Of a stretch of 64,000 bases of DNA, positions 17,489 to 56,369 are shown in pieces. Below the pieces are notes generated by a model. That model ran no database searches. It saw only the letters and a program-made list of their open reading frames with translations, and was not told the DNA's origin. The stretch lies in the NCBI RefSeq assembly GCF_009914755.1, contig NC_060942.1. The stretch is one strand, 5' to 3'. Each line of letters starts with the position of its first letter. Position 1 is the first letter of the stretch. Position numbers and translations under genes: made by a program. This DNA is from the human T2T-CHM13v2.0 reference genome, Homo sapiens.

Positions 17489-20176
17489 GAATACAACTAC
17501 TGTTACTTAAAAGAACTTTTACATTTGTAATCAAAAGTCAATTATTATATGTATTACCAACTGCATTAAGACTAGAATGTAAGCTCCAATAACACAAGTA
17601 CTTAATCTGTTTTATTTATTGCTTTGTAGATCATTATTTCTCAGAAAAACCTGACTTGTATTACATTTTCAATAAACATTTTCTGAATGAATGAAGAAAA
17701 GACACTATCATTAAAAATGCATTTGGCATTTTTAATCAATCATTCAAAACATTTTTCAGCTGCTTGTTTCCATTTTGAGTAGTATTAATTATTATTATTA
17801 CAAGATACTATCTAATTTATTTTTCATTAATTTTAATCTGTTGAAAGGACATTCTGTCACTGGTATTAGAAGTTGAGTAAAATAAAGAACCACTCTTATT
17901 CTTTATGATAATTACATAAGAGAATGTATAAAATTTTCTTTTTTTTAACTTCTACATTTAGTGATTTTATGCAAAGCACTCACTGAATTAATACCCATCT
18001 GAGAAGGTTTTTGAAATTTTTTTGCACCTCTGTGTATTTTTATGACTTTTCATACATTAAATTAATTGAATAATACTGGAAATATAGTTATCACTAATTG
18101 CACTATATTTTAAAACCTCTTGTCTGGCTTGTTAGTTACTATGCCAATCAAACAGTTAAAAAGGGAACTAAGATAATCTCTTTGCCTGAATATTGTCAAA
18201 AATCAGAGAACTGGAGCTGTCACATTGGTCTCAGCCAATGAATGAACTAAGTTGCTTTAATTATCATCAGACCATAATGAAATTTCAGCCAAGGGGTTTG
18301 TGTGTGTGTGTGTTAGTCAAAATAGAAAACAAATTGACATAGCATTAATAGATGAACCTAAAAGAGACCACCAAGTTTCTTTGGCTAAAGAATGGCCAAA
18401 TATCAAAGCACTTTCACTACTTTACTAATAAGTGTTTCCAAATTCTTTTGGCAAAAAAAAAAAAAAAAAAAAAAAAGAAAGAAAAACCAGAGTGGAAGTA
18501 TGTGACTGTGAAGGCGGTGGGATATGCAACTGCAAGTGGCATCATTTTCACAATCTAAGGTGCAAAAAAATCTAAGGTGCACTTTTGCCTCTGGTATTGG
18601 GAAAAGTGACAATCCTGGATTTACCCATACATTCTTTGCACATCATATTAATCTGGGTATTCTATTCTGAATAATATACTAATACCTGCATAAGAAATAT
18701 TCTTTGACAATGTAGAGATCAGATGAATTTCGCAGTAACATATTTTCTTTGGTACTTCGTAATTGAGTTTTGCGACTGTGTAATCAATTAGGCATTTTGA
18801 AAGTGGAATGTGCCAGTTATTGTACAAGCATCAGAAATAATTTATTCATCTGTAGGCTATCAAAATAAGGTGTAAATACAAAAGAATGCTTGCAAAATTT
18901 TATCTATGCTGTGGTTATTGTGCCCCAGGGCCAAATTAAGATAGTATCTCCTCCCTGCTGTAATATGTTAGTGTACTACTAAAGATGTAATTCAGCTGTT
19001 ATAAAAGTCTACAGTGCTGCAGTAATTCTTCTTTATGAAGGTTTTAGAGGTTCAAGCTTTTTTCACTTTGCTACTCTGTGATTCATAGGATGTTGCCTTG
19101 ATCTCTTTAGTTGACTTACACTATTAGATTATTCTTCTCTATGTTGAGTCAAAGTCAACCCATAAAGAGTAAGTAAGCTGATTATCATACAATGCATTAA
19201 CCATCCTCTTTCAGGAGTGACACATCATAAAGGATGGCGTCCTTCCTTCCCAGCCCTCTCCTGCTCTGATTATAGCCTCTGTCCTCTGTTTGGCTGAGCT
19301 CAAATTTCTTCATCTTTCTTAATCCTGTCACACTCATAACAGTGCCTTATTATTTTTTATAGATGAACAATCTGATTTATTATACACAGAGACATATCAC
19401 TTCTTTATTCCCTATAATAGAGCATGAAGGCCTTGAGGCGAGATAGAGACCACACAACGCATGGTGATCAATTGCAAAATACTTGATCTTTCTTAACTTT
19501 GTCTTGAGCTTGGACTCTGGTATTCTGTCAGAGCATTGAGTTACTACTAATACAGAACGTGTCTTTGCATGGGGGGTTTTAAATGGTGGTTTTAGTTGCA
19601 GGCACTCCAGGATTAGCAGGAGAAAATTGGATGATAGAACTTTCTGAACAGTTATTGTGGAAAGTCTCCACACCACTTTTGGTCTCAGTAATTTTATTTC
19701 TAAAATAACTGGCAAGGTTGCTTTTGGTAAGCAATTTGTTTTCTTTTAGCTCTGATCATCTATGACCCCTTGTTTCTATACCTAATAGAAGCTCTGTTGT
19801 GGTATATCTTCATAGGATGCACCTATGCTTGAAATATGGGGATATTTAATAAATATGCATCATAATATGATGATAACAGATGATGGGTGATATTGCCTCA
19901 TAATATTAATAAAGTATATGAAATAATAAAAGCTAGTGACCTGACTGGATTTAATTACTTTGAGAGATAATTTTATTTAAAGACTATATTTATTCCTAAA
20001 ATAAAATGAAAATTTTGATTTATTCAGTACAAGTCTTGTTTTAAATATTGATCTTCTACTAATAATTTTATTACATGTCACAAGACAGTTCAAAATTTTT
20101 AGAATAATTTTGCTTTAAAAATTCAACACGGCAGCTTCTTTTTCTTCCCATTTGTTCCATTGTTTTGTCCCTGTAG

Positions 20177-20334
20177 ACAGTCCAGAGTCCAAACAACCAT
20201 GAAGCTCATAGTTCAGCATGTCAGTTTCTACTGATGTCACCAGTGGGGCTTGCACCAATATCAATGCTGTCTGCATCAGTCCAGGAACCCCTGAACCCTC
20301 AGAACTCCCAGACAGACTATTCCAGCAGGGCCAG
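20177..20334 (+). pseudogene. DYNAP-like pseudogene A, exon 2 homolog
   Basis: After the acceptor ccctgtag it reads TVQSPNNHEAHSSACQFL/DVTSGACTNINAVCISPGTPEPSELP, versus DYNAP PITHPNDQEAHSSICWCLPSNDITSDVSPNLTGVCVNPGILAHSRCL. Length is 158 vs 165 nt (7-nt deletion, frameshift). The donor is cag|ataatg instead of cag|gtaatg. Confidence 0.9.
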
Positions 20335-20452
20335 ATAATGTTTATGATAATATTGCTTGTTTCTCCAGTGATACTTCCGTGGCAGTACTCCTGGCTCAGT
20401 ATTTATTGAATGGGTATATGTATATAATAATATAGGTATTATATATTAGGAA

Positions 20453-20704
20453 TTATATATATATATAGAGAGAGAGAGAGAGTGTGTATATTTCTATAAA
20501 ATGATGTGTGTGTATGTATATATACATATGTATACACATATATGTGTGTATGTATATATACATATGTATACACATATATGTGTGTATGTATATATACATA
20601 TGTATACACATATATATGTGTGTATGCATATATGTGTACATGTGTATAATATTATCTAATATCCAATATATATATACACACACATATATATCCCATATAT
20701 ATAT
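20453..20704. repeat. (TA/TG/CA)n compound microsatellite with a ~34-bp higher-order unit
   Basis: The unit tgtgtgtatgtatatatacatatgtatacacata(ta) occurs three times in tandem. Confidence 0.9.
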
Positions 20705-20869
20705 GGAATGGGCAGGTAAACTAAGCTCAAGTAGCAAGATAGAGGTATCATTGTGCTCCAAGACTCTAAAGGCCTTGCTCTGTAGGAACCTGCCTCTTGC
20801 TGCAATCCCAATCCAGCCTCTGAGTCAGCCTGACTGTCCTTTCTTTACCCCTCTGGGCTCTGACTTCTT

Positions 20870-21960
20870 TTTTTTAAAAAACTTTTTATTATGGGAAATT
20901 TAAGACATGCAGAAAAGTAGAAGAAATAGTATAAAATAACCTCATATTTATATCATTCAGCTTCAACAAGTATCAACATTTTCCCAAATGTGTTTCATTT
21001 ATCCTTTCATTCACTTTAGGTCCTTTGACTCGCAGGTAACTCAGCATACTTCTCTATCTGGTAAGGACATTTTAAAAAACATCACCACTTTTCTGTTACC
21101 ATACTTATAAAAATTAACAGTAACTCCTTAATATTACCTAATTGCCAATCTATATTCGAATTGTCCCTATTATCCCCAAAATTATAATTTTTGGTTTTAA
21201 TGAGGATCTAAATAAAGTCTACACATTTCTTTGATTGTTATATATCTGCATCTCTTTTAGTCTAAAATAGTTTTTCCTATCCCCCTCCCCCTCCGTTTTT
21301 TTTAGATGGCATTGATTTGTTGAAGAAACTAGGTCATTTCCATGTAGAATGTCCCACATTCAGGATTGGGTTGGTTGTTTCTTCCTGATACTTTTTGACT
21401 TGTTACTTTATCCTCTCTATTTCCTGCAAGCCACAGGCAAGAAAAATATATAGGTGATGCATTCTACATTTTACTGCACACAAAGTCTGTTTTTTCCACT
21501 TACTGTGATGCTAAGTCTGTAGATTCATGTGGTATCAGGCTGATAGCACTATCATAAAGTTCCTTAACTCTTCCACATAATAGCTTTAGTATCTATTGAT
21601 AATCTTTACCTAGATTCACTTTTGTTTTCCCATTAGGGGTTGGAAACTGGTGATTTTCTGATTATATATTTCCCTCTACAATTATTAGATAGAGATCTTT
21701 GACAAAGATGAACCAGCTGTTTTATTACCTTGAAACGCAATCCTTAAAGAAAGGACTGTAGAAATATTTCAATATTTCATTTTATTTATTAATTTTCAAG
21801 GAAATGAGCTTGCTGGTGCCATAGCAACCTCCAGTGGTGAACCGTGAGGTTTGATTTTTAAGAGTCAATGTTATCATTCCTTTTTTCATGGTTTAATTTT
21901 TCCTTCTGGCCACTTAGGAGCCCCTTCAAGTTGACTCTTTTGTCTTATTGGCAAAATCCC
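20870..21960 (-). mobile_element. Old L1M (L1MC-like) fragments
   Basis: tttttattatgggaaatttaagacatgcagaaaagtagaag...cagcttcaacaagtatcaac and gatttgttgaagaaactaggtcattt motifs. Confidence 0.6.
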
Positions 21961-22104
21961 ATTAATCTTTGACAGATCTCTTGCTGAAGGAAGGAATGTC
22001 CTAGGAATATCATCTTGTACTTTACACACCTCAGACTTATAATTAGCTACCTCTCCAAGGACTACAAACTTTCCTTTGCCCTCCTGATTCTAATCTTAGC
22101 ATCT

Positions 22105-22392
22105 TTCTTTTTGTTTTTGTTTTGCTTGGTTTTTGGAGACAAAGTCTCGCTCCGTCCCCATGCTGGAGTGCAGTGGTGTGATCTCAGCTCATTCTGCCTC
22201 CTGGGTTCAAGCAATTCTCATGCCTCAGCCTCCTGAGTAGCTGGGACTACAGGTGCTTGCCACCATGCCCGGCTAATTTTTGTGTTTTTAGTCGAGACGG
22301 GGTTTTGTCTTGTTGGTCAGGCTGGTCTTGAACTCTTGACCTCAAGTGAGCCACCCATCTCGGCCTCCCAAAGTACTGGAATTACAGGTGTG
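22105..22392 (-). mobile_element. Alu (AluS-like)
   Basis: Antisense dimer ending ...ggaattacaggtgtga; flanking taatcttag repeat. Confidence 0.88.
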
Positions 22393-24083
22393 ATAATCTT
22401 AGTGTTTTTAACCTTGACTTAGAAACTTTACTTTGTTTCCCTGTGTTTTTCACTTTGGTTTGTTGCCCAGACTCAGATCTCCCACATTTCTGAACTCCTG
22501 CCATGTTGCTATATTTACTTCACCTCACAGCATGACCCTAAGCCCTGAACCCGGCAGAAAATTGCCATTGCTTTGTGGGTGAGATGTTTGGCAGCTCGGT
22601 TGGGTTATCCTGGCTTTGAATCCACCCCTCCTCTTTTTCCTGCTATTATGGAGCATCTTCTGGAGGGTCTCGGTCCTGGTCCTTGATACAACTTTAGCAG
22701 AGCTGAGGCAATGTGGATGTTGGAGTGAGCTTAAAGAGAAGTAAGAGGATGTGTCTCCTTGTCTGCAAAAGTGAAATAAAACATTTTGATTTTCAAGCTG
22801 AAAGTTATCTTAGCTACCATTTAATCCAACCTCTTCATTTAATAACTGGAAATACACCTTCAGGAAAGTTGAATATTTTGCTAGAATTTATACAACTAGT
22901 TAGTGGCTGAGATGAACTAGTATCAGGCAAACTTAGAAACTTCTACTAAATATCATAGTTTTGAGACTTAAGAATGCTTGATTTTTTAAAAAGCCTATTC
23001 TTTTCCAATTATCATGCTGTCTATCCACTTAATAATAGCAAAAAAGATTTGTTGCCATGTCATGATAATCATCAGTACCAACATAATCATAAGCGTTTTA
23101 TAGCATGTGCTAAATCCCGGAGAGTGAGATAAGAACTTTACACATTTATCTCATTTAAGCTGCACAACAACCCCATGTGCCAGGTTATATTATTATCCTT
23201 ATTTTACAGATGAAGACTGTGAAGAGCAGAATTGAAGTAACTTGCTCAAGGCAACATTGTAAGTGGCAGAGCCAGGTTGGAAGCCAAGTTGTTTGTGGCT
23301 CCAGACTCTATGCCGTCCAACCACCATGTATTCAGCCTCTCACTTGAACAGCTCTTTATAGTTCACAAAGCTATTTCACCCACATGAATCTTTGTGCCCA
23401 TATTATATGTCTACTAGCACTCCTGTTACTAATTTTACAGATGAGGACATAGGCTCAAAGAGGATAAGCAATTTTCCAAGGGAAAATAGCTAGTAGCTTG
23501 TAGAAGCTAGACTCTCCTAAGATCTGTCTGAAAATTGTCATGCTGACAACTCCTAATATGAGCTGAAGATTTAGCAGATGAATATGTTTTGTCCAATAAT
23601 TTAAAAGTAAGCCACTGGAAGATTCCTAGGGAGTCTACTTAATGGAAGAATTTTGGGTTTTAATAGGCTCAGAAAGGAGAAAATTTTTATCAGGAGAATT
23701 TAGGCAATTCCTTATTGCCAATATAAAGTCAACAACCTACCTGTGTACTGATCTTTGAGGATTTTGGTTTTTTAGCAAGATTTTCTTTGTAAGATTCAGA
23801 CATAAGTATAAGAAAGGATTAGAGTTGTATGCAAGTTTCTTTACTCCAGTGGTAGGAAAAGTTTAAGACATTGCTCAGGATGAAATGTAGAAATTTAACT
23901 TAGTATTTATTATGAAAAAAAAATAATAGTGACATTTACACACTTTTGGTGAGGCAAATTACAAGTAAGTGGCAAATTATAAATAACAAGCACTAATTAA
24001 AATTATAAAGAAGCAACAATGACCTTCATTTTTCTTGAAATGTTTGATTTCATTTTTACTATTTTTATTTAAATCATTTTTAG

Positions 24084-24794
24084 GTGACACAAAATATATC
24101 TAGTGACTACTCTTTGTGGAAAATCTTTCTTATTTGTCTCTTATCCTGTGTAATAACAGCAGCAATTGGAGTGTTCATTGTGTGCCTGGTCAATAAATAT
24201 GAGGACAACACTGCCTCCATTATTATCCATGTACCCCTAGATGATGTGGAACCTAGAATAATCATTCCTGAAACAACCACACTGCCTATCTCTTAATCTA
24301 CAGTGACCACCACAACAGAACTAACTACGTCAATTGTACACACAACTACCACAACAGATAATTCTAAAATTTCAACTGAACTTATGACCATAAGGTCCTC
24401 TACCATCATGTCACCTGAACCTGCAGCCAACACAATTTCAACCGAACCTACAAACATAACCCCAGTAACCTTCACTTCAACGGAAGCTATTACCATAATG
24501 GAAACAATCATCAGCATTTCAATGAAATCTTCTACTATAATGGATAGTACCACCACTCCAACAGAATCTATCACTTCAACTGAGCATAATAGCACCACAA
24601 CAGTTATGGTCATGTCAATAGAAGTTATACCTAATGTTACTCCAACAGACCTTACAACAATAACCACTTCAATGGAACATACAACTCCTGAAGCTACAAC
24701 CATCAACACACACAAAAAAAAAACAAACACACAAAACACCTGCAACAACACAAGGACTTCCTCACAGCAAAGAAACTTTTATTACTACTTTTAA
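24084..24794 (+). pseudogene. DYNAP-like pseudogene A, exon 3 homolog (TM helix plus long Ser/Thr mucin-like stalk)
   Basis: After the acceptor tttttag it reads VTQNISSDYSLWKIFLICLLSCVITAAIGVFIVCLVN, with 25/50 identities to the start of DYNAP exon 3. A single in-frame TAA lies at 24294-24296; the same frame then stays open and Thr/Ser-rich to 24794. AATAAA at 25132. Confidence 0.92.
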
Positions 24795-26620
24795 TTATCC
24801 CATTGTTTCATCCCCCACTATCTTTTCTACTCCTGAGTTTATATCTATGCCTAGCTGATTCTTTAACCAACAGGAATATTTCACTGGAAGTTTATCACCT
24901 TTTGAAGGGCAAAAGGACAACCATTTGGTCCCTCATCAATCTTCCATCACTATAATGAGATAAAACCCACATTGTCTTCTGCATTCATTAGACCATTTCA
25001 CTAGAACTGAAATTTTAATTTAAAATGTTTGTCAGTTTTCTTAAAGTTTCTGATTATGTAACTTGCCTAGACAATGAGCCTAGTTTGCTATCTAAAAAGC
25101 CTTATCTAAGAAAAGTATGATAAAATCTCATAATAAAATCACTTTGATATCTGTTGGTAATATTAATGCATTTATAGGGTGAACTTTCAATATAGGAGTG
25201 TGTTAAATAAATATAAATAGAATATTTCTAATTATTGTATGTTTTCCTATGTATGCAACACAAAAAGGTAGTTATTTTCTCCTAAGGTTGGCTTTTTGCA
25301 TATTATATTGACTGCTACTGCTAATGCCACTAACATTATTGTGTAAAGAGCTTTTTCTATTTTTAAATGGAAGCATTAAATACTGAAGAAGTAAAGAAAG
25401 AAAATAACAGTGCAGGATAAGTAATATGATTATTAATATGGACTTTTATTGTTTAGAATTTCTGCCAACTGATGAGGTTAGAATGAATACTTACAGTGGC
25501 CAGGCTTCTCTAGAAGCCTATGGAACCAATGAGGTGGACCAGGAATATATTTTATAAATCCGTAGATATTAAAGAGTTGTTAACAAAATTAGTTATTGAG
25601 ACATACTGTAAAAAATGTTAGCCTATAAAGAATGGACTCCTATTAAACATGATTTCATTCTGGCAGGGGTTAAGGGGGAATATTTTCCTTACCATGTAGT
25701 AAAAAAGTATGTATGATTAAGGAAAAATTTTTAAACAAATATTTTAATATCAGCCATGCTAATTTAAAATATTTAAAAAAATTCTTCCATGCCACTTCAA
25801 CAGGATATTGTTTTCAATATTTTAGTTTATTTCCCATAATTATACATAGTTAAAGGTGACACAATCCATTTGGATACTTTAATCTAGATTGTAATCATGC
25901 AAATTACAATTCTCTTCGAGTCATTTAATTAAACAACACACACATACACAAGCTTACTTTAAAAAATGATAGTAAGATTTTTCTCAGCTTGACATGTAAT
26001 AGGTGCTTAATAAATATCCATTACATGAATGTCTACCTGCCCACATATATAAATAGATAAATGTTAATTGACTTGTATATTAGTTTTCTATTACTGCTGA
26101 AACACATTATGAAAAACATAGGGGCTTAACTCAACACAAATTTATTATTTTTAAAATAAAACAGAGATAATAAAAGTTATTTTCTCTGGAGGACAGTCCA
26201 TTTCCTTGCCTTATCCTGCTTCTAGGGCATGCCAAATGCCTCCCGGGTGGGAACTTCCCACATATAATTTGTAACTACATGTGTGCATCTTCTATTTATT
26301 TAATACCTGGGTAGTATTCCATTGTATAAGTATGCCATTTTGAGAACCATTCACTCTTTTAGAGGCTTTAGACTATGTCATTTTACTTCTGCTTCTTCCA
26401 GTAGAATTCCCTAAACTAAAGGCAGGGAAAAAAATTGAGTAGTTTTTAAAAGATCCTATGTTTTTCTTTTAAATTCAGAATCAACATACAAGGTATAATA
26501 TAATGTCCCAGCAATGCAGGGATGTCACTTGTGTGTTTATTATTGAAAATTTACAGATTAGCATGATGCATGGAAAGTAAATAATTTTTAATGAATCAAT
26601 TATTTTTAAAAGTTATTTCT

Positions 26621-32227
<5,607 letters not shown>

Positions 32228-35085: not shown

Positions 35086-35600
35086 AGTGTTACCCAAGGG
35101 AATTTCATCTTGCTAAATACTGGGACTGTGGGACTGAAAAGTTCAGAGTATTCGGGACAGACTGAGTCAAGGCAAGCTGCTCAGGAGCCCTGGATGCCTC
35201 CCTCAGAGGAGGTATCAGTCCTGGAGAGGGAGAATGGTCATCCTAGGCTTGAAAGAAGGCAACTGGAAACTTCATCTACTTCAGAATCCTCTCATGGACT
35301 GGCCCTGAACTTTAGAGGAATGATGTCTATGGGATGATAGCAAGAGCAAGAAAGGAAATATTACATATTACCACAGTTTCCTTCTGCTAGACAGGATGCT
35401 CAGAAAGAAGCAACAATAGCTCTTAGGGGCAGGATTGGTTTTCGTGTTACTTATTGCAATTAATGAATATTTTACTTCTGACTGTTAAGGTGGGTCTTCT
35501 GTTAGTTCTGATATTTAATGTTTCATTTAATCAACACATGCATGGATGCATCATAGTGAATTTGCCATCAGCCAACTAAAATATTACTCAAGGTTTCAAA

Positions 35601-35728
35601 TATAAAGAGCAATCACTGATCAAAAGGCAAATTAGTTTTGAAGTTAAACTTGTGATACTGGCAGCTCAAAAATGGAGAGGAAACATGGGGAATACATGGT
35701 AAATATTGACCCCTCTAGAAACCAGCCC
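35601..35728 (+). pseudogene. DYNAP-like pseudogene B, TATA box plus exon 1 homolog
   Basis: TATAAA at 35601. cttgtgatactggcagctcaa is identical to DYNAP. ATG 35672 gives MERKHGEYMVNIDPSRNQP versus DYNAP MDRKHGKYILNVEHSENQP. The donor position reads atgggt instead of gtgagt. Confidence 0.9.
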
Positions 35729-35769
35729 ATGGGTAACTGTTGTTCCATTTGGATATTGTGTTTATGTGA

Positions 35770-37359: not shown

Positions 37360-37740
37360 GACAAATAACAAAATACTCCTTCAGCAGCACTGTTTTTTCA
37401 CCACTGAAAGACACCACCTGTCATGGTCTACAATGAATACTTCAAGTGAACCTTCTGCTTACCAGCACTTTAGCTAAAATGTAGCTATCACGATGTCTAC
37501 TGAATCTGCCACTATTATCGTGTCAAATTAAGCTGCAACTACCACTTCAACTGAGCCTTCAATTTTTACAGCTACCACTATTTCAGTTGAATGTACACCA
37601 ACAACAGAAACCAGCACATCAGCTGAGACAGCACAACCTCTATCCTCCCTTCCAGTGAATCTACTAATGAAAGTGCTAACATCACCATTCTCACAGAAAT
37701 TACAATGTGGTGGCCTCCTATAAGGCAACCAAACCATTAA
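37360..37740 (+). pseudogene. DYNAP-like pseudogene B, decayed mucin-stalk remnant of exon 3
   Basis: Reads AITMSTESATIIVSN*AATTTSTEPSIFTATTISVECTPTTETSTSAET (compare DYNAP AATTSTEPIT). Downstream 37860-38110 aligns with the pseudogene A 3' region 24900-25160. Confidence 0.75.
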
Positions 37741-48312: not shown

Positions 48313-48447
48313 ATGGTTGCAGATATAAAGGGCAATGAACAAATTGAAAAATATTCTTGGAGAGAAGCTTGTGATACTGGCAGCTCAAGAATGGACAGAA
48401 AGCATGGAAAATACATATTGAACGTTGAGCACTCTGAAAACCAGCCG
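48313..48447 (+). CDS. DYNAP: Dynactin-associated protein, coding exon 1 (second ATG at 48391 is probably the ancestral start)
   Basis: Translates MVADIKGNEQIEKYSWREACDTGSSRMDRKHGKYILNVEHSENQP; donor ccg|gtgagt, phase 0. Confidence 0.92.
48324..48329 (+). promoter_or_regulatory. TATA box of the DYNAP proximal promoter
   Basis: TATAAAG lies 67 nt upstream of ATG 48391 and is conserved in paralog B (35601, 71 nt upstream of its ATG). Confidence 0.65.
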
Positions 48448-49291
48448 GTGAGTGTCCTTGCTCCATTTTGATAGTTTGCCTATATTACAGTTTCATTTTC
48501 AGCATTTAAAAGCAGTTTAATCTCTTTATTACTATCTAGCCAACATCATAATTTTGCATTCTTCTCCAAAATAAAGAGCAACCCTGTATCAATTTTTGTG
48601 CTGTAACTTTCATGTTTTATTTTGCTATGTTATATATTTAGGTATTAATTTAAATATATATAGCTATAAAGTATTAGAAATGTTTCTATGGCCATAGGAT
48701 ATACAAATAGATCCATTTAACTTTCTATATTCACCTTCATGTAAACATAAACTCCAATGATGTCAGTGTTTATTTATTAAGTTCTGTTTTTACAATTGGA
48801 TGCTTAGAATTTTTAGACCTGTCAGAACTCAGATTTCTTAATATGCTGAAAAACCAGATATTAATTCTAGATATTAATATTCCTAAGAAAGAAAACTTCC
48901 AAAAATACCTGCTCTGTGTCAAAATATGACTATTTTGTCTGCTTTTTAAAAAATATTTTTATACCAAAAACCAAGCCTTCAGTGTATAGTTATCATAATC
49001 ATATATCTGTATCATATACAGATTTTATGTATCTATTTATATCCAACCAAATAATCTTTGACTTCAGAAAAGGAAGGACATGTAATGAGAATTAAAATAG
49101 TGAGTTAAAATTCACTGCCAGCAGAATGAATGAAACATGTGTGAAGAAATAGCTTGCTTTTGTCATATGGAGCTGTGGTAATCAGCCTGTGTAACTCATG
49201 AGATAAACCAAAGAAGAAAGTCCTGTTTCTCAGTAAGTGTTAATACAAGAATCCTATAGAGGATTTCTGGTTCACCAAAAGAACCAAGATC

Positions 49292-49338
49292 TTCACTCCC
49301 TGGGCTGGTGTCTGGAAGTCTGCTTGGTCAGTTGCTCA
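49292..49338 (-). repeat. Right arm of 47-bp inverted repeat
   Basis: ttcactccctgggctggtgtctggaagtctgcttggtcagttgctca. Confidence 0.9.
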
Positions 49339-50750
49339 GGCAGCACTGTAATTGGATCTTCAAGATGTTCAGATACTCAGATGGAAAAAAAAATTATCCT
49401 TGGTCAGGTATGTATCATCTTGATAGTTTTTCTAGATAATAACAAATGTAAAGATGTTTACAAATATTAGCTTATATTGTTTTTTTTTACAGCATATATC
49501 TGGATAGCTGACTAAATATTTTACTTTATTATATTATTCAGGCATAGATATAACTATATTTTTCTCTTCAAACCAAATTCAATAATGGAATTTAAAAAGT
49601 ATTTGAAGATTATAAACACACAGAAAATAAATTTTGGTGTCCTTGTTTTTCTGTTAGGGATCTAAGAAATCTCAAGTTAATCCTTATAAAGTTTGGGTAA
49701 AAAACTTACCGAATGTACTTTAGTTAAGTACAACCAATGCATTTCAGTTGCCTGTGGCCATTATTAGCTAATGCTGATTATGCTAATGCTGGTTAACATT
49801 ATTTACAGCTCTTCAACTCTTCCAGTTTTGAATAGAGACTCCACCTGTAGTAAGAGTCAGAGCAACCTGACACAGTAAAATTATTACTTAGGCTGCAAAC
49901 TGGGCCTAGATCACAGGTTCCCCATCCTTAGTGTAGACCCACCCATCACCTTCCTCTCTGAAAGGGCTGGGATTCTAACAGGGCCAGAAAATTCTGGGAA
50001 ACTGCCCCACTGAGTGAGTTTCACTTTGTTTGCAAAGGCATTAAAATGTTCAGGTTCATCAGCCACAAGCAAATTGGATGTAATGAAAACAACAGGATCA
50101 GCACCTAGTTAAATAAGCAAGGGTATTAACAAAGATAAATTCAACTTATTCAAATTTGCATAATGAATAGTAGGTAGAATTTTGTTTATTCATATTTGAT
50201 AAACATGGGACTGATATCTATTTCTTTTATATTATATTTACAGAAAAAATTAACTTAGCTAATTGTCCACTGCCAGGAGTATCCCATCTTAACTATATTT
50301 AATGACAATTTTATATTTTTGTATTTTTAATAATAATTCCTAATGGGTCAATGATTATGTATCATTCTGGTTTGACAGTTTTCATGGAACTCACTGGTTG
50401 GTTGGCCAGTAATTTCTATAACTATTAGTAATGGGTTATTAAATCAACACAAAGACAACTAGTGGCAGTAGCGGTAGTAATTAAAATACTATTACTAATA
50501 ACAAGAATGATAGTTAACACATATTCAGTGGGTATTATGTGCCAGACATTGCTACAAGCATTTGGCAGTTATTTACTCAGTGATCATATGAGCAAATCTG
50601 TAAGTGGGTAATTTTAGTATTCTCCTTTTGAAGCTGATAGGAGTGGCCAAAGATAACCTTGATTCACAGCTAGAAAGTAAACGTTATCATCCTGTGAGAT
50701 GAAGAGCCTTAGATCATTCTACATTATGTTTGATATGTAACAAAACTTTT

Positions 50751-51070
50751 GGCTGGGTACAGAAGCTCATACTTACAATGCCAGCACCTTGGGAGGGCAG
50801 AGCCAGAGGAGTGCTTGAGCCCAGGAGATCTAGACCATCCTGAGCAACATATGGAGACCCCATCGCTATGAAAAATAACATCAAAAATAATTAGATGAGC
50901 ATGAAGGCATATGCCTATAGTCATTGGCTACTCAGAAGGCTGAGATGAGAGGACTGCTTGAGCCTTGGGAGGTCGAGGTTTCAGTGAACCATGACTGTGT
51001 CTCTTCACTACAGCCTGGGTTACAGAGAGAGATCCCATCTCAACAAAACAAAACAGAACAAAACAAAAAA
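50751..51070 (+). mobile_element. Diverged AluJ-like element in DYNAP intron 1
   Basis: Alu dimer with (CAAAA)n tail; TSD caaaactttt/aaaaactttt. Confidence 0.85.
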
Positions 51071-52046
51071 CTTTTCCACAAGATCCATAAATTCCTGAAT
51101 CTACTCCTTTCTCATGTTCACTTTATCTTATCCTTCCCCTCTTTTAACACACCCCTTCCCTAAAGTCTTTCCCTGCCAACTCAGTTGTTTTCAATCCTTA
51201 TTTACCTCTTTTTCTGAATAATTTACAATTATTGCATTTATTTGTTAATTAGACACTAACCTGTTTTGCCTCCCTGTTAGCAAATAGACTCCTTGAGAGT
51301 GGAGACCTGTATTGTTGTGGACTGTTTTTACATTGCTCTATGCCCAAGAGGAACCCAGCAAAAACATACTGCAAATTCGACAAATGATTTGTCTTCTGTG
51401 TCACTGCCATAGGCTTGCAAGTTCCATTGGATAGAGCATGGTATGAATTATGTAAAGCAGTCACTTTGTGTAAGAATTTTTCACTAGTATCATGTAGTAT
51501 AGTATATACTACATTACTGTATTAGCATAGTATGGCATAGCATAAGAATATACTATTCCTAGTATAGTGTAGTGGAGTACATGGGCCTTAACACTGGAAG
51601 GTCTGAGCTCCTGTGCTAGCTGTTGTGTCATGATGACAAATCATTTCAACTCTTTTCACTTCAATATTTTCATTTCCAAAATGACCTGAACAGGTTGTAC
51701 CCAATAAGATGCAAGGACTTCAGCTCACCATCCTCTTCCTTATAGAGGCTTCTTAATATATGCTCCACATACAGCAGCTTGCAACATAAGGATATTCGAT
51801 CCATTTATGTAATATCATGAGGAAGAGGATACACATTCCTGAACTAGAACTTTAGTAGCCTACCAAAATTAGTTAAAGTATAATATATAATAATCTGTCT
51901 AGATTTTTTTATCTTCAGGGGATAAGAAAACATTTATTCCTTTTAAAAGTCATACTCTTAGGTACTTTTGATAGAAGAATTTTATTTTAGCAACTCAACA
52001 CCATGGTTTCCTAGGCTTCCTACTCACTTCCACTCTGCCTTTGTAG

Positions 52047-52211
52047 CCAATCACACATCCAAATGACCAAGAGGCTCACAGTTCCATATGCTGGTGTCTA
52101 CCTTCAAATGATATAACCAGTGATGTCTCTCCCAACTTAACTGGGGTCTGCGTGAACCCAGGAATCCTTGCACATTCAAGATGTCTACAGTCAGAATCCT
52201 GTAACACACAG
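52047..52211 (+). CDS. DYNAP: DYNAP coding exon 2 (165 nt, phase 0/0)
   Basis: ctttgtag|cca...cag|gtaatg; PITHPNDQEAHSSICWCLPSNDITSDVSPNLTGVCVNPGILAHSRCLQSESCNTQ. Confidence 0.95.
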
Positions 52212-53160
52212 GTAATGTGTAGCACGGGAGCTTTTATTCAAGTTGGGATGTGCTCTATATGGGCATGTACTTTGCCTATTCTTTCCCAAGAAATGTACTT
52301 AATTACTTAATTCATTTATATTTGTATTAAGCATTTGCTGTATTCTCAGTATAGGTACAAGTCACTGTGAGGCAATTCACAAGAAAATAAATATTTGCTA
52401 GTCTCTGTTTTCCAAGAGCTAACATTCTAATCGGGGACTCAAACATCTATAATAGATAGAGAACATACATGAAAATCAAAGGAATAAGTGTAAGGTGCAA
52501 ATGCAAGGTTAGGGAGGGGCAGATGAATAAGAATGTTGGCAATATTAGGGTTTAATTCACCATTAGACTCTGATGGGAGACTGTCATATTTAAAGTTTCA
52601 TGGGTCCTATTCTTTTGGCGATCACCTTATTTTCTTACTCTGTGCAGCCTCCGAACCTGTGTGTGGCACTTTCTTTAGCTCCCTGGGTTCTGGCCTCTGG
52701 TGTATACGACCTTAACACAGAAACCTTACTGTTCTCTGGAGCATCTCCACTAGCTTTGGAGACCAGACTCAGCTCTCCTTGGTTCCTGACCTCATGTCCT
52801 GTAGGCTGAATGAACTTTACCTCACGACTGTATCTTTAAGTCTTCAGCCCTTGTATAGAAATTTAACATTGACTATAAATTACCAATATGGCTTGGCAGT
52901 TTGGTTTGATTCCCCAGACTCTGGAATTCCTTCCTTTCGCTGCTTAGTCTTGCTATAGAGACTCAGTAGAGAGCCTCTGAGGCTTGTTTCTTGATTCTGG
53001 ACAAAACAATATGAACTTTATACTGTTTCTGGGACAATGTGAAAGAGTAAGCTCAGTAGGATGGAGTTAGAAAATGTTTCTTCTTGTTTGCAGAGGTAAA
53101 GTAATCCATATCAATCATGGAATTGAAGGAGGTCTTCAATAACATTGAGTCTGCTAGCTC

Positions 53161-53480
53161 TTTTTTTTATTTTTATTTTTTATTTTTTTGTTTTTTTGAG
53201 GCAGGTTCTCATTCTTGTCACCTAGGCTGGAGTGCAGTGGCACAATCATGTCTCACTGCAGCTTCAACCTTCTGGGCTTAAACAATCCTCCCATCTCAGC
53301 CTGCTAAGTAGCTAGGACCACATGCATATGCCACCATGCCTGGCTAATTTTTTAATTTTTTGTAGAGTTGAGGTCTTGCCATGTAGCCCAGGTTGGTCTC
53401 AACCTCCTGGGCTCAAGGGATCCACCCGCTTCAGCCTCCCCAAATGCTAGGATTACAAGCATGAACCTCCATGTCCAGCC
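53161..53480 (-). mobile_element. AluJ-like element
   Basis: Antisense dimer with T-rich tail. Confidence 0.88.
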
Positions 53481-53483
53481 TCT

Positions 53484-53670
53484 GCTGGTTCTTAAACTTG
53501 ACTGCATATTAGAATCACCTGGGGACTGTTTAAGACCAAATCAAGTGCCTGAGCCCCACCCCAGACTAATTAAATCAGAAACTCTGGGGGGTGGGGCCCA
53601 TACAACAATGGTTTTTAAAAGCTACCCAGATGAATCTAATGTACAACTAGTGATGAGAATGACTGATCTA
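53484..53670. mobile_element. MER5A-like hAT-Charlie MITE
   Basis: ggttcttaaacttgactgcatattagaatcacctgggg...ccccacccagactaattaaatcagaaactctgggggg. Confidence 0.75.
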
Positions 53671-54339
53671 GTCCCATTAAATCATTTAACAATTAGGGAA
53701 AATATGGCTCAGGAAAGTTTAGAGAGTTGCTAGAACTCATACGGTTTTTGCCAGAAGGGGCCAAAGCAGGAGGAGAACTTAGTTTCCTTTTGTCTGATCA
53801 TGTGCATTTTATTCCACTAAAGGGCTCTTTTTAAGTTTGTGTGATGCAGTATTATAGACTCCTCTCCCAGATGTACACAAGCCTTTTTGCCACTTTCTTT
53901 TCTTGAACCTCCTTTTCAGTGCTTCCCATCAAGGAAAGAGGACGTTATTTGTCCTAGGGCTAACTTGATCTTAGTGGCCCTCATTTCCCTGGCCTTGGTG
54001 ACCATTGCCCTCATTCCCTGCTGTCTTTGTGTCATCAGGCTTTTCATGAAACTCTAGTCTTCCAACAAATACCATGGCACATATTTTGTAATGTTTCAGA
54101 CCTACTGTATTCTGTCTGAAAGGTATGAGTTTTGTATTCTATTCCTGGAAGATCTTGCTTTCATCCAGGTAATAGTGAAATAATCTGTTGGACTCCAAAG
54201 CCCTTGTTTCTAAATTCTAAATTCTATATTATACTGCATCCAAAACAAAAATAATACTTTTGAAAACTAGTGACTTTATCAATGTTATTTTTAATCTTCT
54301 CAACAACAATATGAGATGTTGTTCTCACATTAAAAAAAA

Positions 54340-54682
54340 GGTAGGGGTGAGAGAGGAAAGAATAAGAGGAATACAGAGGATTTTTTAGGGTAGTGAGACT
54401 GCTCTGCATGATACTGTAATGGTAAATACATGTCATCATATAGTTGTCCAAACCCATAGAGTGTACACCAACAAGAGTGAACCCTAAAGTAATCTGATAA
54501 TGGTATATCATTGTAGGTTCATTAATTGTAACAAATGTTCTACTCTGATGGGAGAAGTTGACAACTGGTGAGGCTGAACATGTGTGAGGGCAGGAGGGAT
54601 GTGGGAAATCTCTGTATTTCCTGCTTAGTTTTGCTGTCAACCTAAAACTGCTCTGAAAATAAAGTCTGTTAAAAAGAAAAAA
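54340..54682 (+). mobile_element. L1MC/MD-like 3' end
   Basis: gtccaaacccatagagtgtacaccaacaagagtgaaccctaa...aaactgctctgaaaataaagtc plus A-tail. Confidence 0.75.
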
Positions 54683-54920
54683 GACAAATGGAAAATAGAA
54701 TAAGAGAAGATGAGATTTTGCAAATTTGTCTTTCTTCTAATGTAAGGGACAGCAGACAATTATTTCCACCTGCATGAAAACATGGACTTCAAGCCCATCT
54801 TTCAGAGACACATAGTGACTCAAATGATGTTAACCCAATAAGTTATAAGTAATATAAAAGAGATGATAAATTACAAGCATTTTTGTTTTTCATTGCTGAT
54901 ATTTTTATATACATGCTTAG

Positions 54921-55253
54921 GTAAAAGAATATTGCCGCAATGACTGGTCTATGTGGAAAGTCTTCCTGGCTTGTCTCTTAGCCTGTGTGATAATGACAGC
55001 AATTGGAGTACTTATAATATGCTTGGTGAATAACAAAGGATCGGCCAATTCCTCCATTGTTATCCAGCTATCCACAAATGATGGAGAGTGTGTGACTGTC
55101 AAACCTGGAACACCCTCTCCTGCTTGTCCACCTACAATGACCACCACTTCAACTGTACCTGCAAGTACAGCCACTGAATCTACAACTTCAACAGCTACAG
55201 CTGCCACCACTTCCACAGAACCTATAACTGTTGCACCTACCGATCATTTATAA
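54921..55253 (+). CDS. DYNAP: DYNAP coding exon 3 (CLLAC transmembrane helix plus short Thr/Ser-rich tail)
   Basis: gcttag|gtaaaagaatat gives VKEYCRNDWSMWKVFLACLLACVIMTAIGVLIICLVNN...VAPTDHL*. The three exons sum to 45+55+110 = 210 aa, matching the DYNAP protein as I recall it. Confidence 0.96.
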   Translation, partial: VKEYCRNDWSMWKVFLACLLACVIMTAIGVLIICLVNNKGSANSSIVIQLSTNDGECVTVKPGTPSPACPPTMTTTSTVPASTATESTTSTATAATTSTEPITVAPTDHL

Positions 55254-55258
55254 TTTGA

Positions 55259-55611
55259 ACAGCCATAGCCATCACTTCAACTGAAACTTCAACCTCTACC
55301 ACTTCAACTCAGTTTGCAACTATAATAGCTACTCCTATCACTTCAAGTGGAATCATGGCTGCAGTCACTTTAACAGACTCTATAACCGTTACAACTTCAA
55401 CAAAATCAAGTCCTACTTCAACTTAAACTTACTTGACAACTCAAATAATCACCACTTCGACCATCTCTTTGACTGAATCAACAACTACATTCCCTTCAAC
55501 TGAATCTGCAACCACTTCCACTTAACCTATAACTACTGTAACTTCTACTTAGCCTACAGTAACAATGCTCATCACTCTTTTCCAACAATGTATAATCTCC
55601 ACCTATTCATC
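55259..55611 (+). other. Fossil mucin-stalk reading frame in the DYNAP 3' UTR
   Basis: In a shifted frame it reads TAIAITSTETSTSTTSTQFATIIATPITSSGIMAAVTLTDSITVTTSTKSSPTST*TYLTTQIITTSTISLTESTTTFPSTESATTST*PITTVTST*PTVT..., and resumes at 56374 after the LTR. Confidence 0.85.
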
Positions 55612-56369
55612 TGAGGACTAAGCTCTGATTTTTCATCTTGCCCAAATTCCTTTCTAAGGGGTATGGGGAGTCATGCCCTACAAACCATAAATTCTCATCA
55701 GATGGGTTTTATTTAACCCTGTATATTGTGACTTACTTTCTAATCTGACTCTGGCATAACAAGGGAAAAAAATCAAAATGTTTTACCCCAAAATATATTT
55801 CCTTGCCATACCTTGAAATTGTCCTGCAAAGTCTCTTGTGGAGAAACTCCACATTCTGTAGAGAATATCCTTTCCCCTTTGTTTTCCTTCCTTTCTTTCC
55901 AGATCCAGGAGATAATCAACTAAGAGCCAGGCACCCTTTTAGGTCTAATAAGAAACACTTTACAACCTGCTCTCTCTCTGAAGTCTGCTTTCTGAGAGAT
56001 TCCTCTGCACAATAAAACTTGATCTCCACAATCCTTTATCTTAACCTGAACATTCCTTTCCATGGATCTCAGGTCTTCAGATAAACTAAACCAATTGTCA
56101 ACCAGAACATGTTTAAATTTACCTATAGCCTGGAAGCCCCAACTTTGAGTTGTCCTGCCTTTCTGAACCAAGCCAATGTATTTCTTAAATGTATTTGATT
56201 GATGTCTCATGTCTCCCTAAAAATATATAAAACCAAACTGTACCTTAGCCACTTTGGACACATGTTCTCAGGACCTCCTGAGGGCTATGTCATGAGCCAT
56301 GGTCACTCATATTTGGCTCAGAATTAATCTCTTAAAATATTTTACAGAGTTTGACTCTTTTTGTCAACA
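55612..56369 (+). mobile_element. MER4-group solo LTR (MER4D/E-like)
   Basis: tgaggactaagctctg...tttgtcaaca; 4-bp TSD catc (55608-55611 and 56370-56373); AATAAA at 56011. Confidence 0.88.

What the first reader, a model, noticed from the sequence alone, without database searches (positions are those of the whole stretch)
20177..24794. Pseudogene A is lightly damaged and preserves a ~200-aa mucin ectodomain
The lesions I can see are a 7-nt deletion in exon 2, a GT>AT donor at 20335 and one TAA at 24294. A slip in the A-run near 24715 is possible, and I could not find exon 1. Both acceptors, the TM helix, 236 codons of exon-3 frame and AATAAA (25132) persist. So few lesions against ~50% amino-acid divergence from DYNAP implies long function and relatively recent loss. 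It may be intact in other primates or mammals.
Basis: partly seen in the sequence, partly recalled or inferred. Interest (0 to 1): 0.7.

Follow-up and report, generated by a model that had tools for sequence, protein, structure and literature searches.

The report
Recently disabled old DYNAP-family gene copy
This is the annotated human pseudogene DYNAPP2, a copy of an old membrane-mucin gene that seems to have stayed in working order for most of its history and broke only fairly late, which is tidy but ordinary gene-family biology.

Summary
Window 20177-24794 carries unprocessed copies of DYNAP exons 2 and 3, annotated in RefSeq as DYNAPP2. Confirmed features are a 7-nt deletion, a GT>AT donor, one in-frame TAA, both acceptors, a CLLAC transmembrane helix and a 236-codon frame. 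A frameshift at the A10 run is probable. No exon 1 lies upstream.

The open frame is not chance. It has 1 internal stop, against 16 and 17 in the other two frames. None of 5000 dinucleotide shuffles had one or fewer. There is no tandem repeat and no gene-conversion tract.

The nearest relative is not DYNAP. It is the upstream paralog U (LOC124908007/DYNAPP1), whose own frame is intact. Both U and DYNAP keep the 7 nt and the GT, so these two lesions arose in this copy. The copy has changed no faster than U (43 against 41 private changes). U-A pN/pS is 0.60.

Five database proteins from other mammals form a well-supported "A-type" clade with it, so the lineage is old. All five are partial or chimeric gene models. 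An intact ortholog is therefore not shown.

"Intact elsewhere" stays open. Interest is low to moderate.

The parts
20175..20176 (+). AG acceptor in front of the exon-2 copy
   Evidence: Aligned with the DYNAP and U acceptors.
20177..20334 (+). Copy of family exon 2 (cytoplasmic part), 158 nt instead of 165
   Evidence: Aligns to DYNAP 52047-52211 (z 11.3) and to U exon 2 (z 19.3; blastn 72.7% over 187 nt, E 6e-24). Both halves are free of stops in the homologous frames.
20231..20232 (+). Site of the 7-nt deletion (frameshift)
   Evidence: A single 7-column gap against DYNAP and against U, both of which have 165 nt. The loss is therefore derived in this copy.
20335..20336 (+). Destroyed splice donor: AT where DYNAP and U have GT
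24082..24083 (+). AG acceptor in front of the exon-3 copy
   Evidence: The blastn match to U also covers about 80 nt of the intron before it.
24084..24794 (+). Copy of family exon 3: 236-codon frame ending in TAA 24792-24794
   Evidence: Translation. Stop statistics. BLASTP to the A-type part of P0043 gives 50% identity over 133 aa, E 2e-22.
24108..24194 (+). CLLAC-motif transmembrane helix
   Evidence: Pfam PF15675, residues 9-37, 44.4 bits, E 1.2e-11. dN/dS against DYNAP is 0.30 over 28 codons.
24294..24296 (+). In-frame TAA (codon 71 of exon 3)
   Evidence: At this column A-type relatives have Q (P0043, P0082) or H (P0061).
24297..24713 (+). S/T-rich ectodomain part behind the TAA, still open and in frame
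   Evidence: 0 stops in 165 codons (24297-24791), against 11 and 10 in the other frames. 0 of 5000 shuffles had none in a given frame. No tandem repeat. NCN codon signal stays in frame 1 throughout.
24714..24723 (+). A10 run, probable site of a frameshift
   Evidence: NCN codon signal moves from frame 1 to frame 2 here.
24724..24858 (+). Probable original end of the coding region, read in the +1 frame to TGA 24856-24858
   Evidence: 45 open codons, of which 20 are NCN, against 10 of 44 in frame 1. This is an inference.
25132..25137 (+).
   Evidence: The motif occurs 66 times on this strand of the window.

Best explanation
The stretch is DYNAPP2, an unprocessed (intron-bearing) pseudogene.

It is the human remnant of a separate, old paralog lineage of the DYNAP/CLLAC family, called 'A-type' here. 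It lies in a tandem array on chr18: U (LOC124908007/DYNAPP1), then A (DYNAPP2), then DYNAPP3, then DYNAP.

In working form the gene would have encoded a small type II single-pass membrane protein. That protein would have had a short cytoplasmic N-terminal part (exons 1-2), a CLLAC transmembrane helix, and a Ser/Thr-rich, presumably O-glycosylated outer part of about 200-220 residues (exon 3). Topology and glycosylation are inferred by analogy with dynAP.

The A lineage split from its nearest paralog U before the primate-cetartiodactyl split. The evidence is the A-type exon 2 in a beaked-whale gene model. The lineage was kept under frame-preserving, mildly purifying selection for most of the time since.

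In the primate lineage leading to humans it was then disabled. The lesions are a 7-nt deletion in exon 2, loss of the exon-2 donor, a nonsense codon in exon 3 (probably CAA to TAA), probably a slip in an A10 run, and loss of exon 1 from its expected place.

The amount of neutral decay corresponds to roughly 0.02-0.035 substitutions per site. By recalled primate divergence figures that lies somewhere between the great-ape and anthropoid ancestors.
For: Anatomy:
- Exons 2 and 3 sit in order with their intron and both acceptors.
- The transmembrane helix passes the Pfam CLLAC cut-off, 44.4 bits against 25.
- The outer part is 39% Ser+Thr, the same as DYNAP's.

Old origin:
- Apart from Alu-type repeats, only the start of exon 3, or exon 2 and the start of exon 3, align by blastn to DYNAP or U.
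- dS is 0.63 to DYNAP and 0.69 to U.
- A 6-row clade has support 100/96. It holds this copy plus 5 database segments: P0076, P0043 142-209, P0061, P0082 and P0064. The tree has 78 rows (quick version).
- The Mesoplodon model P0029 carries an A-type exon 2 in the normal frame, including the 7 nt that are missing in humans.

Kept in working order for long:
- 1 internal stop in 236 codons, against 16 and 17 in the other frames. 0 of 5000 shuffles had one or fewer.
- No tandem repeat, so no recent expansion.
- No high-identity tract to U or DYNAP, so no gene conversion.
- Private nucleotide changes over 117 codons are A 43, U 41 and DYNAP 61; binomial p for A against U is 0.91.
- U-A pN/pS is 0.60 (range 0.42-0.87; 0.45% of bootstraps reach 1 or more). 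That is lower than the D-U pair at 0.75.
- The part behind the TAA aligns by position with coding sequence of P0043 for about 52 more residues.

Lesions are derived: U and DYNAP both have 165 nt and a GT donor.

Late loss:
- The target size for disabling changes is 85-134. Three lesions then give d = 0.022-0.035 (95% range about 0.005-0.10). Four lesions give 0.030-0.047.
- The former coding tail of DYNAP itself is now 3'UTR in an anthropoid-wide short form. It has 4 stops in 149 codons, against 1 in 236 here (binomial p = 0.077).

Uniqueness: the human genome holds no second copy.
Against: - Against DYNAP the pairwise pN/pS is 0.83 and not significantly below 1.
- The rate comparison with U has little power. 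With the family's high dN/dS, even a copy that had been dead for a large share of the time would give a ratio within the error. This is my estimate.
- No clean full-length A-type protein was found. Two word-based searches with the exon-3 translation found nothing. All 5 A-clade members among the proteins examined are partial or chimeric (63 profile hits and 34 hits, overlapping).
- P0043 reads the first half of A exon 2 out of the normal frame, so that species may carry exon-2 damage too.
- P0076 contains L1- and Alu-derived sequence, so it likely comes from a primate. It ends exactly at the codon before the human TAA, at 75% identity over 44 aa. If that stop is shared, the nonsense codon is older than my estimate. 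The chance that the 495-nt tail stayed open is then only 0.017-0.08 at d = 0.057.
- Species names of the A-type relatives are unknown, except for P0029.
- The dating rests on recalled indel-to-substitution ratios and recalled primate divergences.
Confidence: 0.7

Rival explanations
1. Old loss: the A-type gene was already dead in the primate ancestor, or even in the boreoeutherian ancestor. On this view the human copy merely decayed slowly, by luck or through a locally low indel rate.
For: - All 5 A-clade database proteins and the whale model are partial or chimeric.
- P0043 reads exon 2a out of frame.
- P0076 ends at the same codon as the human TAA.
- Two searches with the exon-3 translation found no annotated ortholog.
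Against: - The chance that the 495 nt behind the TAA stay open and in frame falls to 0.001-0.012 at d = 0.10.
- There is 1 internal stop in 236 codons, against 12.8 expected from shuffles.
- There is no rate excess over the intact paralog U.
- U-A pN/pS is 0.60, below the value for the two intact genes.
- Poor gene models are common for weakly expressed, low-complexity genes and do not prove that a gene is broken.
Confidence: 0.15
2. Still in use: exon 3 of this copy serves as an alternative last exon of the upstream gene U. All family introns lie between codons, so U exon 2 joined to A exon 3 would be in frame. Alternatively, some human haplotypes may lack the TAA. On either view the locus is not simply dead.
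For: - Gene models in two other mammals fuse U exons with A exons (P0043, P0029).
- The exon-3 acceptor is intact.
- Exon 3 is better kept than exon 2: 2 lesions in 158 nt plus donor, against 1-2 in 711 nt. My binomial estimate is p of about 0.09, which is not significant.
- A paper's search listing shows DYNAPP2 once in a TCGA differential-expression report. That is a listing only; the term is not in the held text.
Against: - In this assembly the TAA at codon 71 would end any such protein 34 residues behind the membrane.
- The A-run shift is a further defect.
- Fused models are a common prediction artefact in tandem arrays.
- No transcript data could be seen.
Confidence: 0.1
3. Dead on arrival: the copy never functioned after duplication, and the long open frame is a by-product of A/C/T-rich low-complexity composition.
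For: The sequence is G-poor (11% G) and rich in ACN codons, which lowers stop density somewhat.
Against: - The same composition gives 16 and 17 stops in the other two frames, and a mean of 12.8 in dinucleotide shuffles. 0 of 5000 shuffles had one or fewer.
- There is no tandem repeat.
- The NCN codon signal stays in one frame over about 450 nt.
- With dS of about 0.65 and introns that cannot be aligned, tens of indels would be expected.
- The family's own long-dead pieces look quite different. The stretch at 37400-37650 shows 2 stops in about 85 codons, and the DYNAP 3'UTR tail shows 4 in 149.
Confidence: 0.03

Closest known systems
LOC124908007 / DYNAPP1, the upstream paralog U (window about -17347 to -4815; chr18:54728653-54741185 in T2T)
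   Same: - Same three-exon plan with codon-boundary introns, the same exon-2 length apart from the 7 nt, a CLLAC helix and an S/T-rich tail.
- It is the closest relative: 51% amino-acid identity over 117 codons and 71% nucleotide identity in exon 2.
   Different: - U is intact in this assembly. It has an ATG exon 1, a 165-nt exon 2 with AG and GT, and a 1153-codon exon 3 built of roughly 37-residue repeats, 60% Ser+Thr.
- This copy has no repeats, a tail of only about 200 aa, four lesions and no exon 1.
DYNAP (dynAP, C18orf26), window 48391-55253
   Same: - Same family (Pfam CLLAC), the same exon 2/3 plan and splice phases, and the same Ser+Thr share of the outer part at 39%.
- dynAP is described as a type II single-pass membrane protein of 210 aa. 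It has an S/T-rich C-terminal part outside the cell and is found at the Golgi and plasma membrane (PMC8329785; abstract, introduction, part of the methods and the Fig. 1 legend read).
   Different: - Only 41% identical over the 117 alignable codons.
- DYNAP is expressed and intact.
- Its outer part is shorter in humans (74 aa behind the helix) because its own tail was cut short.
A-type relatives in other mammals (database proteins P0043 142-298, P0061, P0082, P0076 236-279; A-type exon 2 in P0029, Mesoplodon densirostris)
   Same: - They form one clade with this copy, support 100/96.
- P0043 matches at 50% over 133 aa, P0061 at 58% over 69 aa and P0076 at 75% over 44 aa.
- Motifs behind the helix are shared.
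   Different: - They are parts of predicted proteins, open across the place of the human TAA in 3 of 4 cases (Q, Q, H).
- None is a clean full-length model.
- Species are unknown for all but P0029.

Membership tests
DYNAP / CLLAC-motif family (Pfam PF15675) | Transmembrane helix with the CLLAC-type motif that passes the Pfam gathering score | tested here: met
   Residues 9-37 of the exon-3 translation score 44.4 bits against a cut-off of 25, E 1.2e-11. The motif reads CLLSC instead of CLLAC.
DYNAP / CLLAC-motif family (Pfam PF15675) | Three coding exons with codon-boundary introns: a short exon 1 starting MDRK..., a 165-nt exon 2, and a long exon 3 that starts just before the helix | tested here: inconclusive
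   Exons 2 and 3 are present, with acceptors at the homologous places. Exon 1 was not found upstream. The only exon-1 copy in the window lies downstream at 35672-35728, annotated as DYNAPP3.
DYNAP / CLLAC-motif family (Pfam PF15675) | Ser/Thr-rich part C-terminal to the helix, on the outside of the cell (type II topology) | tested here: met
   Composition is 39% Ser+Thr and 6% Pro over residues 37-236, with 4 N-X-S/T sites. Topology was not tested. It is taken from dynAP (PMC8329785).
Unprocessed (duplicated) pseudogene | Keeps the intron-exon structure of the parent family. It is not a retrocopy. | tested here: met
   A 3.7-kb intron lies between the exon copies and both acceptors are kept.
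Unprocessed (duplicated) pseudogene | Disabling lesions relative to intact relatives | tested here: met
   A 7-nt deletion, an AT donor and a TAA, all absent from U and DYNAP. A frameshift at the A10 run is probable.
Unprocessed (duplicated) pseudogene | No functional product (no spliced, translated mRNA) | not testable with these tools
   No transcript, ribosome or peptide data are on hand.
Lineage-specific ('unitary-like') gene loss: ortholog intact in other species | At least one other species with a complete, intact ortholog under purifying selection | tested here: inconclusive
   A-type relatives exist (clade support 100/96). All 5, and the whale model, are partial or chimeric. No mammalian genomes other than the human one were available.

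The most novel reading that the evidence does not exclude
The exon-3 copy may not be a free-standing dead gene. It may be, or may have been until very recently, an alternative last exon of the upstream mucin-like gene U (LOC124908007). On this reading one promoter and cytoplasmic part could be joined to either of two different transmembrane-plus-ectodomain modules. That would explain three things: exon 1 is absent, exon 2 is more damaged than exon 3, and gene predictors in two other mammals fuse U and A exons. A weaker form is that the TAA, the only certain lesion in exon 3, is still polymorphic in humans.
Probability: 0.08. Interest if true: 0.55.

Novelty: already known. Interest (0 to 1): 0.3.

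Why it matters
The locus is already annotated as a pseudogene, so the gain is modest. It shows that the human DYNAP region is the remnant of an array of at least three, and perhaps four, old type II membrane-mucin genes in different states:
- U has an intact frame and a 1153-codon mucin exon.
- A broke late.
- DYNAPP3 is almost gone.
- DYNAP is working but has a shortened outer part.

If the loss of A proves to be confined to apes or catarrhines, it would join the catalogue of lineage-specific losses of cell-surface glycoproteins in primates. It would also give a dated example of how slowly a non-repetitive mucin frame decays.

No paper on the evolution of this family or on DYNAPP2 was found. 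Searches returned only functional papers on dynAP and one expression list.

Tried and rejected
- Word-based protein search with the whole exon-3 translation, TAA read as X. 690 candidates, none at E of 0.01 or better.
- The same search with the first 70 residues against longer proteins. 21 candidates, none at E of 10 or better. Both are weak negatives because the database is very large and needs shared 5-mers. A control with DYNAP exon 3 found 34 mammalian proteins.
- Tandem-repeat search in both mucin parts. 0 rows, so a recent repeat expansion is rejected as the cause of the open frame.
- Intron alignment between the copies. Only Alu-type repeats and exon-adjacent sequence align, so no neutral-site clock from introns was possible.
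- Search for exon 1 upstream with three exon-1 copies as DNA and as peptides. Noise only.
- A shared C-terminus between this copy and U ('SQQ.N'). Rejected, because U's stop arises from a frame change inside its repeat array and the two DNA ends do not align.
- A transmembrane remnant in front of the decayed S/T-rich stretch at 37400-37650. Alignment scores of 31 and 30 lie within the shuffle range, whose means are 33.6 and 29.0. A fourth complete copy is therefore not shown.
- Reading the TCGA paper for DYNAPP2. The term lies beyond the 300,000 characters held, so the direction and level of expression were not seen.
- Second copies elsewhere in the human genome. None beyond U, DYNAP and a remnant at chr18:54618338.


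Full report
**What is there**

The window is human chr18 (T2T). The stretch 20177-24794 holds copies of the second and third coding exons of the DYNAP family, in order and on the + strand, separated by a 3.7-kb intron.

The exon-2 copy (20177-20334) follows an AG acceptor. It aligns with DYNAP exon 2 (52047-52211) along its whole length, with a single 7-column gap between 20231 and 20232. It ends in CAG followed by AT, where DYNAP has CAG|GT.

The exon-3 copy starts at 24084 behind an AG acceptor. Read in the family's frame it runs 236 codons to TAA 24792-24794, with one internal TAA at 24294-24296. Its residues 9-37 match the Pfam CLLAC transmembrane model above the curated cut-off (44.4 bits against 25). 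The rest is 39% Ser+Thr.

**Is it more than chance?**

Exon-2 similarity is 11 standard deviations above shuffles against DYNAP and 19 against the upstream paralog.

The open frame is striking. The other two + frames of 24084-24794 hold 16 and 17 stops. Dinucleotide-preserving shuffles give 12.8 +/- 3.3 stops per frame, and none of 5000 had one or fewer. For the 165 codons behind the TAA, none of 5000 shuffles was stop-free in a given frame.

Other explanations for the open frame do not hold:
- The frame is not the product of a young repeat expansion. Tandem Repeats Finder reports nothing.
- It is not the product of gene conversion. No high-identity tract to either paralog exists.
- The share of NCN codons (Thr, Ser, Pro, Ala) stays highest in the same frame from about 24220 to about 24710.

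**The A-run**

From the A10 run (24714-24723) onward the NCN signal moves to the +1 frame. There are 20 NCN codons of 45, against 10 of 44 in frame 1 (Fisher p = 0.043). That frame stays open for 45 codons to TGA 24856-24858.

The original coding end was most likely near 24858, not 24794. The support is modest.

The human genome could be searched. It holds four CLLAC-type exon-3 matches, all on chr18: DYNAP, this copy, one at window about -8255, and a short remnant 128 kb upstream.

I fetched the 30 kb before the window. The upstream copy is called U here and is annotated both as LOC124908007 (protein-coding) and as DYNAPP1 (pseudogene). It has:
- an ATG exon 1;
- a 165-nt exon 2 with AG and GT;
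- an exon 3 open for 1153 codons, made of roughly 37-residue Thr-rich repeats.

This copy is closer to U than to DYNAP:

| Comparison | Exon-2 nucleotide identity | Amino-acid identity, 117 alignable codons |
|---|---|---|
| to U | 71% | 51% |
| to DYNAP | 59% | 41% |

Both U and DYNAP have the 7 nt and the GT donor, so these two lesions arose in this copy.

No exon 1 lies between the end of U and exon 2. The only further exon-1 copy in the window is DYNAPP3 at 35672-35728. It lies downstream of this copy.

**How old is the copy, and how long did it work?**

Outside the exons only Alu-type repeats align between the copies. dS is 0.63 to DYNAP and 0.69 to U. The duplication is therefore old.

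A profile search of 1.84 billion representative proteins gave 63 hits. In a tree of the 70-residue helix region (78 rows), this copy falls in a clade of six with support 100/96. The other five are P0076, the second domain of P0043, P0061, P0082 and P0064. BLASTP to P0043 gives 50% identity over 133 residues. About 52 of those lie behind the human TAA.

A beaked-whale model (P0029) contains an A-type exon 2 in the normal frame, including the residues that the human 7-nt deletion removes. The A lineage thus predates the primate-cetartiodactyl split. The deletion is younger than that split.

Three results speak for long constraint:
- **Frame preservation.** See the stop and shuffle counts above.
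- **Equal rates.** Over the 117 codons the private nucleotide changes are A 43, U 41 and DYNAP 61 (binomial p for A against U is 0.91).
- **Purifying selection on the U-A path.** U-A pN/pS is 0.60 (bootstrap 95% range 0.42-0.87). That is lower than the value for the two intact genes, D-U at 0.75.

**How recent is the loss?**

I computed the target size for disabling changes. Stop-creating substitutions were taken from the actual codons. Frameshifting indels were set at 0.08-0.15 per substitution, with 80% of them out of frame (recalled values). Six essential splice bases were added. The target comes to 85-134.

- Three lesions give d = 0.022-0.035 substitutions per site (95% range about 0.005-0.10).
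- Four lesions give d = 0.030-0.047.
- Against about 0.35 per lineage since the A/U split, that is roughly a tenth of the copy's history.

By recalled human-lineage divergences (about 0.006 to the chimpanzee split, 0.017 to orangutan, 0.03 to Old World monkeys, 0.057 to New World monkeys) the best guess lies between the great-ape and anthropoid ancestors.

There is also an internal yardstick. DYNAP's own former coding tail now lies in its 3'UTR, in a form shared by the anthropoid proteins in the set. It shows 4 stops in 149 codons, against 1 in 236 here (p = 0.077).

**Evidence against, or limiting**

- Against DYNAP alone pN/pS is 0.83 and not significantly below 1 (13.9% of bootstraps reach 1 or more; one search gave 13.6%).
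- The rate test has low power in a family with such high dN/dS.
- No clean full-length A-type protein was found. Two word-based searches with the exon-3 translation returned nothing.
- All five A-clade members are partial or chimeric:
  - P0043 fuses U exon 1 and the start of U exon 3 with A exon 2b and A exon 3, and reads A exon 2a out of the normal frame.
  - P0061 and P0082 start inside or after the helix.
  - P0064 joins a DYNAPP3-like exon 1 to a helix exon and sits on a long branch.
  - P0076 is L1- and Alu-derived sequence followed by the A helix.
- P0076 contains Alu-derived residues, so it is probably from a primate. It ends exactly at the codon before the human TAA, at 75% identity over 44 residues. 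If that is a shared stop, the TAA could date to the anthropoid ancestor or earlier. The chance that the tail behind it stayed open would then be only 2-8%. If the model is simply partial, this says nothing.
- I could not name the species, and no non-human mammalian genomes were available.

**Mechanism**

By analogy with dynAP, the working A gene would have made a small type II membrane glycoprotein with a larger outer part of about 200-220 residues. dynAP is described as a type II single-pass protein with its S/T-rich C-terminal part outside the cell, located at the Golgi and plasma membrane (PMC8329785; I read the abstract, the introduction, part of the methods and the Fig. 1 legend).

- Shown: exon anatomy, the CLLAC helix, composition, the lesions and their polarity, frame preservation and clade membership.
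- Inferred: topology, glycosylation, the date of loss and the order of the lesions.

**Comparison with what is known, and novelty**

RefSeq already lists the locus as DYNAPP2 (span 20190-24411), so the object is known. Its extent is wider than annotated: exon 2 starts at 20177 and the coding remnant reaches at least 24794, probably 24858.

Three literature searches found functional papers on dynAP and one TCGA expression list that names DYNAPP2. That was seen in the search listing only; the term is not in the held text. Nothing was found on the family's evolution.

"Lightly damaged, long functional, lost late" fits the evidence. "Intact in other primates or mammals" remains untested. The comparison should be with U rather than DYNAP, and AATAAA at 25132 carries no weight (66 copies on this strand of the window).

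**Verdict**

This is an annotated, unprocessed pseudogene of an old paralog lineage. It very probably functioned for most of its history and was disabled within primates (confidence 0.7).

Rival readings:
- Old loss with slow decay: 0.15.
- Continued use of exon 3 as an alternative last exon of U, or a polymorphic TAA: 0.1.
- Dead on arrival: 0.03.

Interest is 0.3.

Noticed in passing
outside the window: window about -17347 to -2700 (G000:C18:54728653-54743300; loci L010, L011): The upstream paralog is annotated both as pseudogene DYNAPP1 and as protein-coding LOC124908007. In this assembly it looks intact: an ATG exon 1, a 165-nt exon 2 with AG and GT, and an exon 3 open for 1153 codons of roughly 37-residue Thr-rich repeats (60% Ser+Thr). 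The stop at window -4815 arises from a frame change inside the repeat array, which continues out of frame for about 2 kb more. It may be an unrecognised human membrane mucin, possibly of variable length.
   Followed up: partly
window 55254-55620 (DYNAP 3'UTR): The human DYNAP outer part is cut short. The C-terminal 55 residues of lemur DYNAP (P0011 216-270) align at 51% to 55262-55420 in a different frame from the human coding frame. The decayed S/T-rich frame continues with 4 stops to about 55620. The short form is shared by the gorilla, macaque and New World monkey proteins in the set.
   Followed up: partly
window 35227-35764 and 37400-37650: DYNAPP3 is an exon-1 copy (35672-35728) with an open 19-codon frame whose donor is AT instead of GT. 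It is about 75% identical to both other exon-1 copies. The unnamed protein P0064 matches it in two consecutive pieces (35227-35328 and 35651-35764) and joins this exon 1 to an A-clade helix exon. DYNAPP3 may therefore be the missing exon 1 of DYNAPP2 in a rearranged order, or the rest of a fourth paralog. A decayed S/T-rich stretch with stops lies at 37400-37650, and no helix remnant was found in front of it.
   Followed up: partly
outside the window: G000:C18:54618338-54618457 (locus L013/L004): A further CLLAC helix remnant lies 128 kb upstream and is followed by a stop. The next residues of its apparent relative continue in another frame. That relative is the N-terminus of P0028, a fused model that also carries cupin domains. 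This is probably another broken family member.
   Followed up: no
window 26763-27092 and 30729-31040: The masked block 26571-31963 between DYNAPP2 and DYNAPP3 matches L1-type protein sequence contained in the chimeric database protein P0076, at 64-78% identity. It is thus an L1 insertion that stretches the gap between the two remnants.
   Followed up: no
database proteins P0043 and P0029 (no window coordinates): Gene predictions in two other mammals fuse exons of the U-type and A-type genes into one model. This may be a prediction artefact in a tandem array, or a hint of read-through or alternative last-exon use.
   Followed up: no
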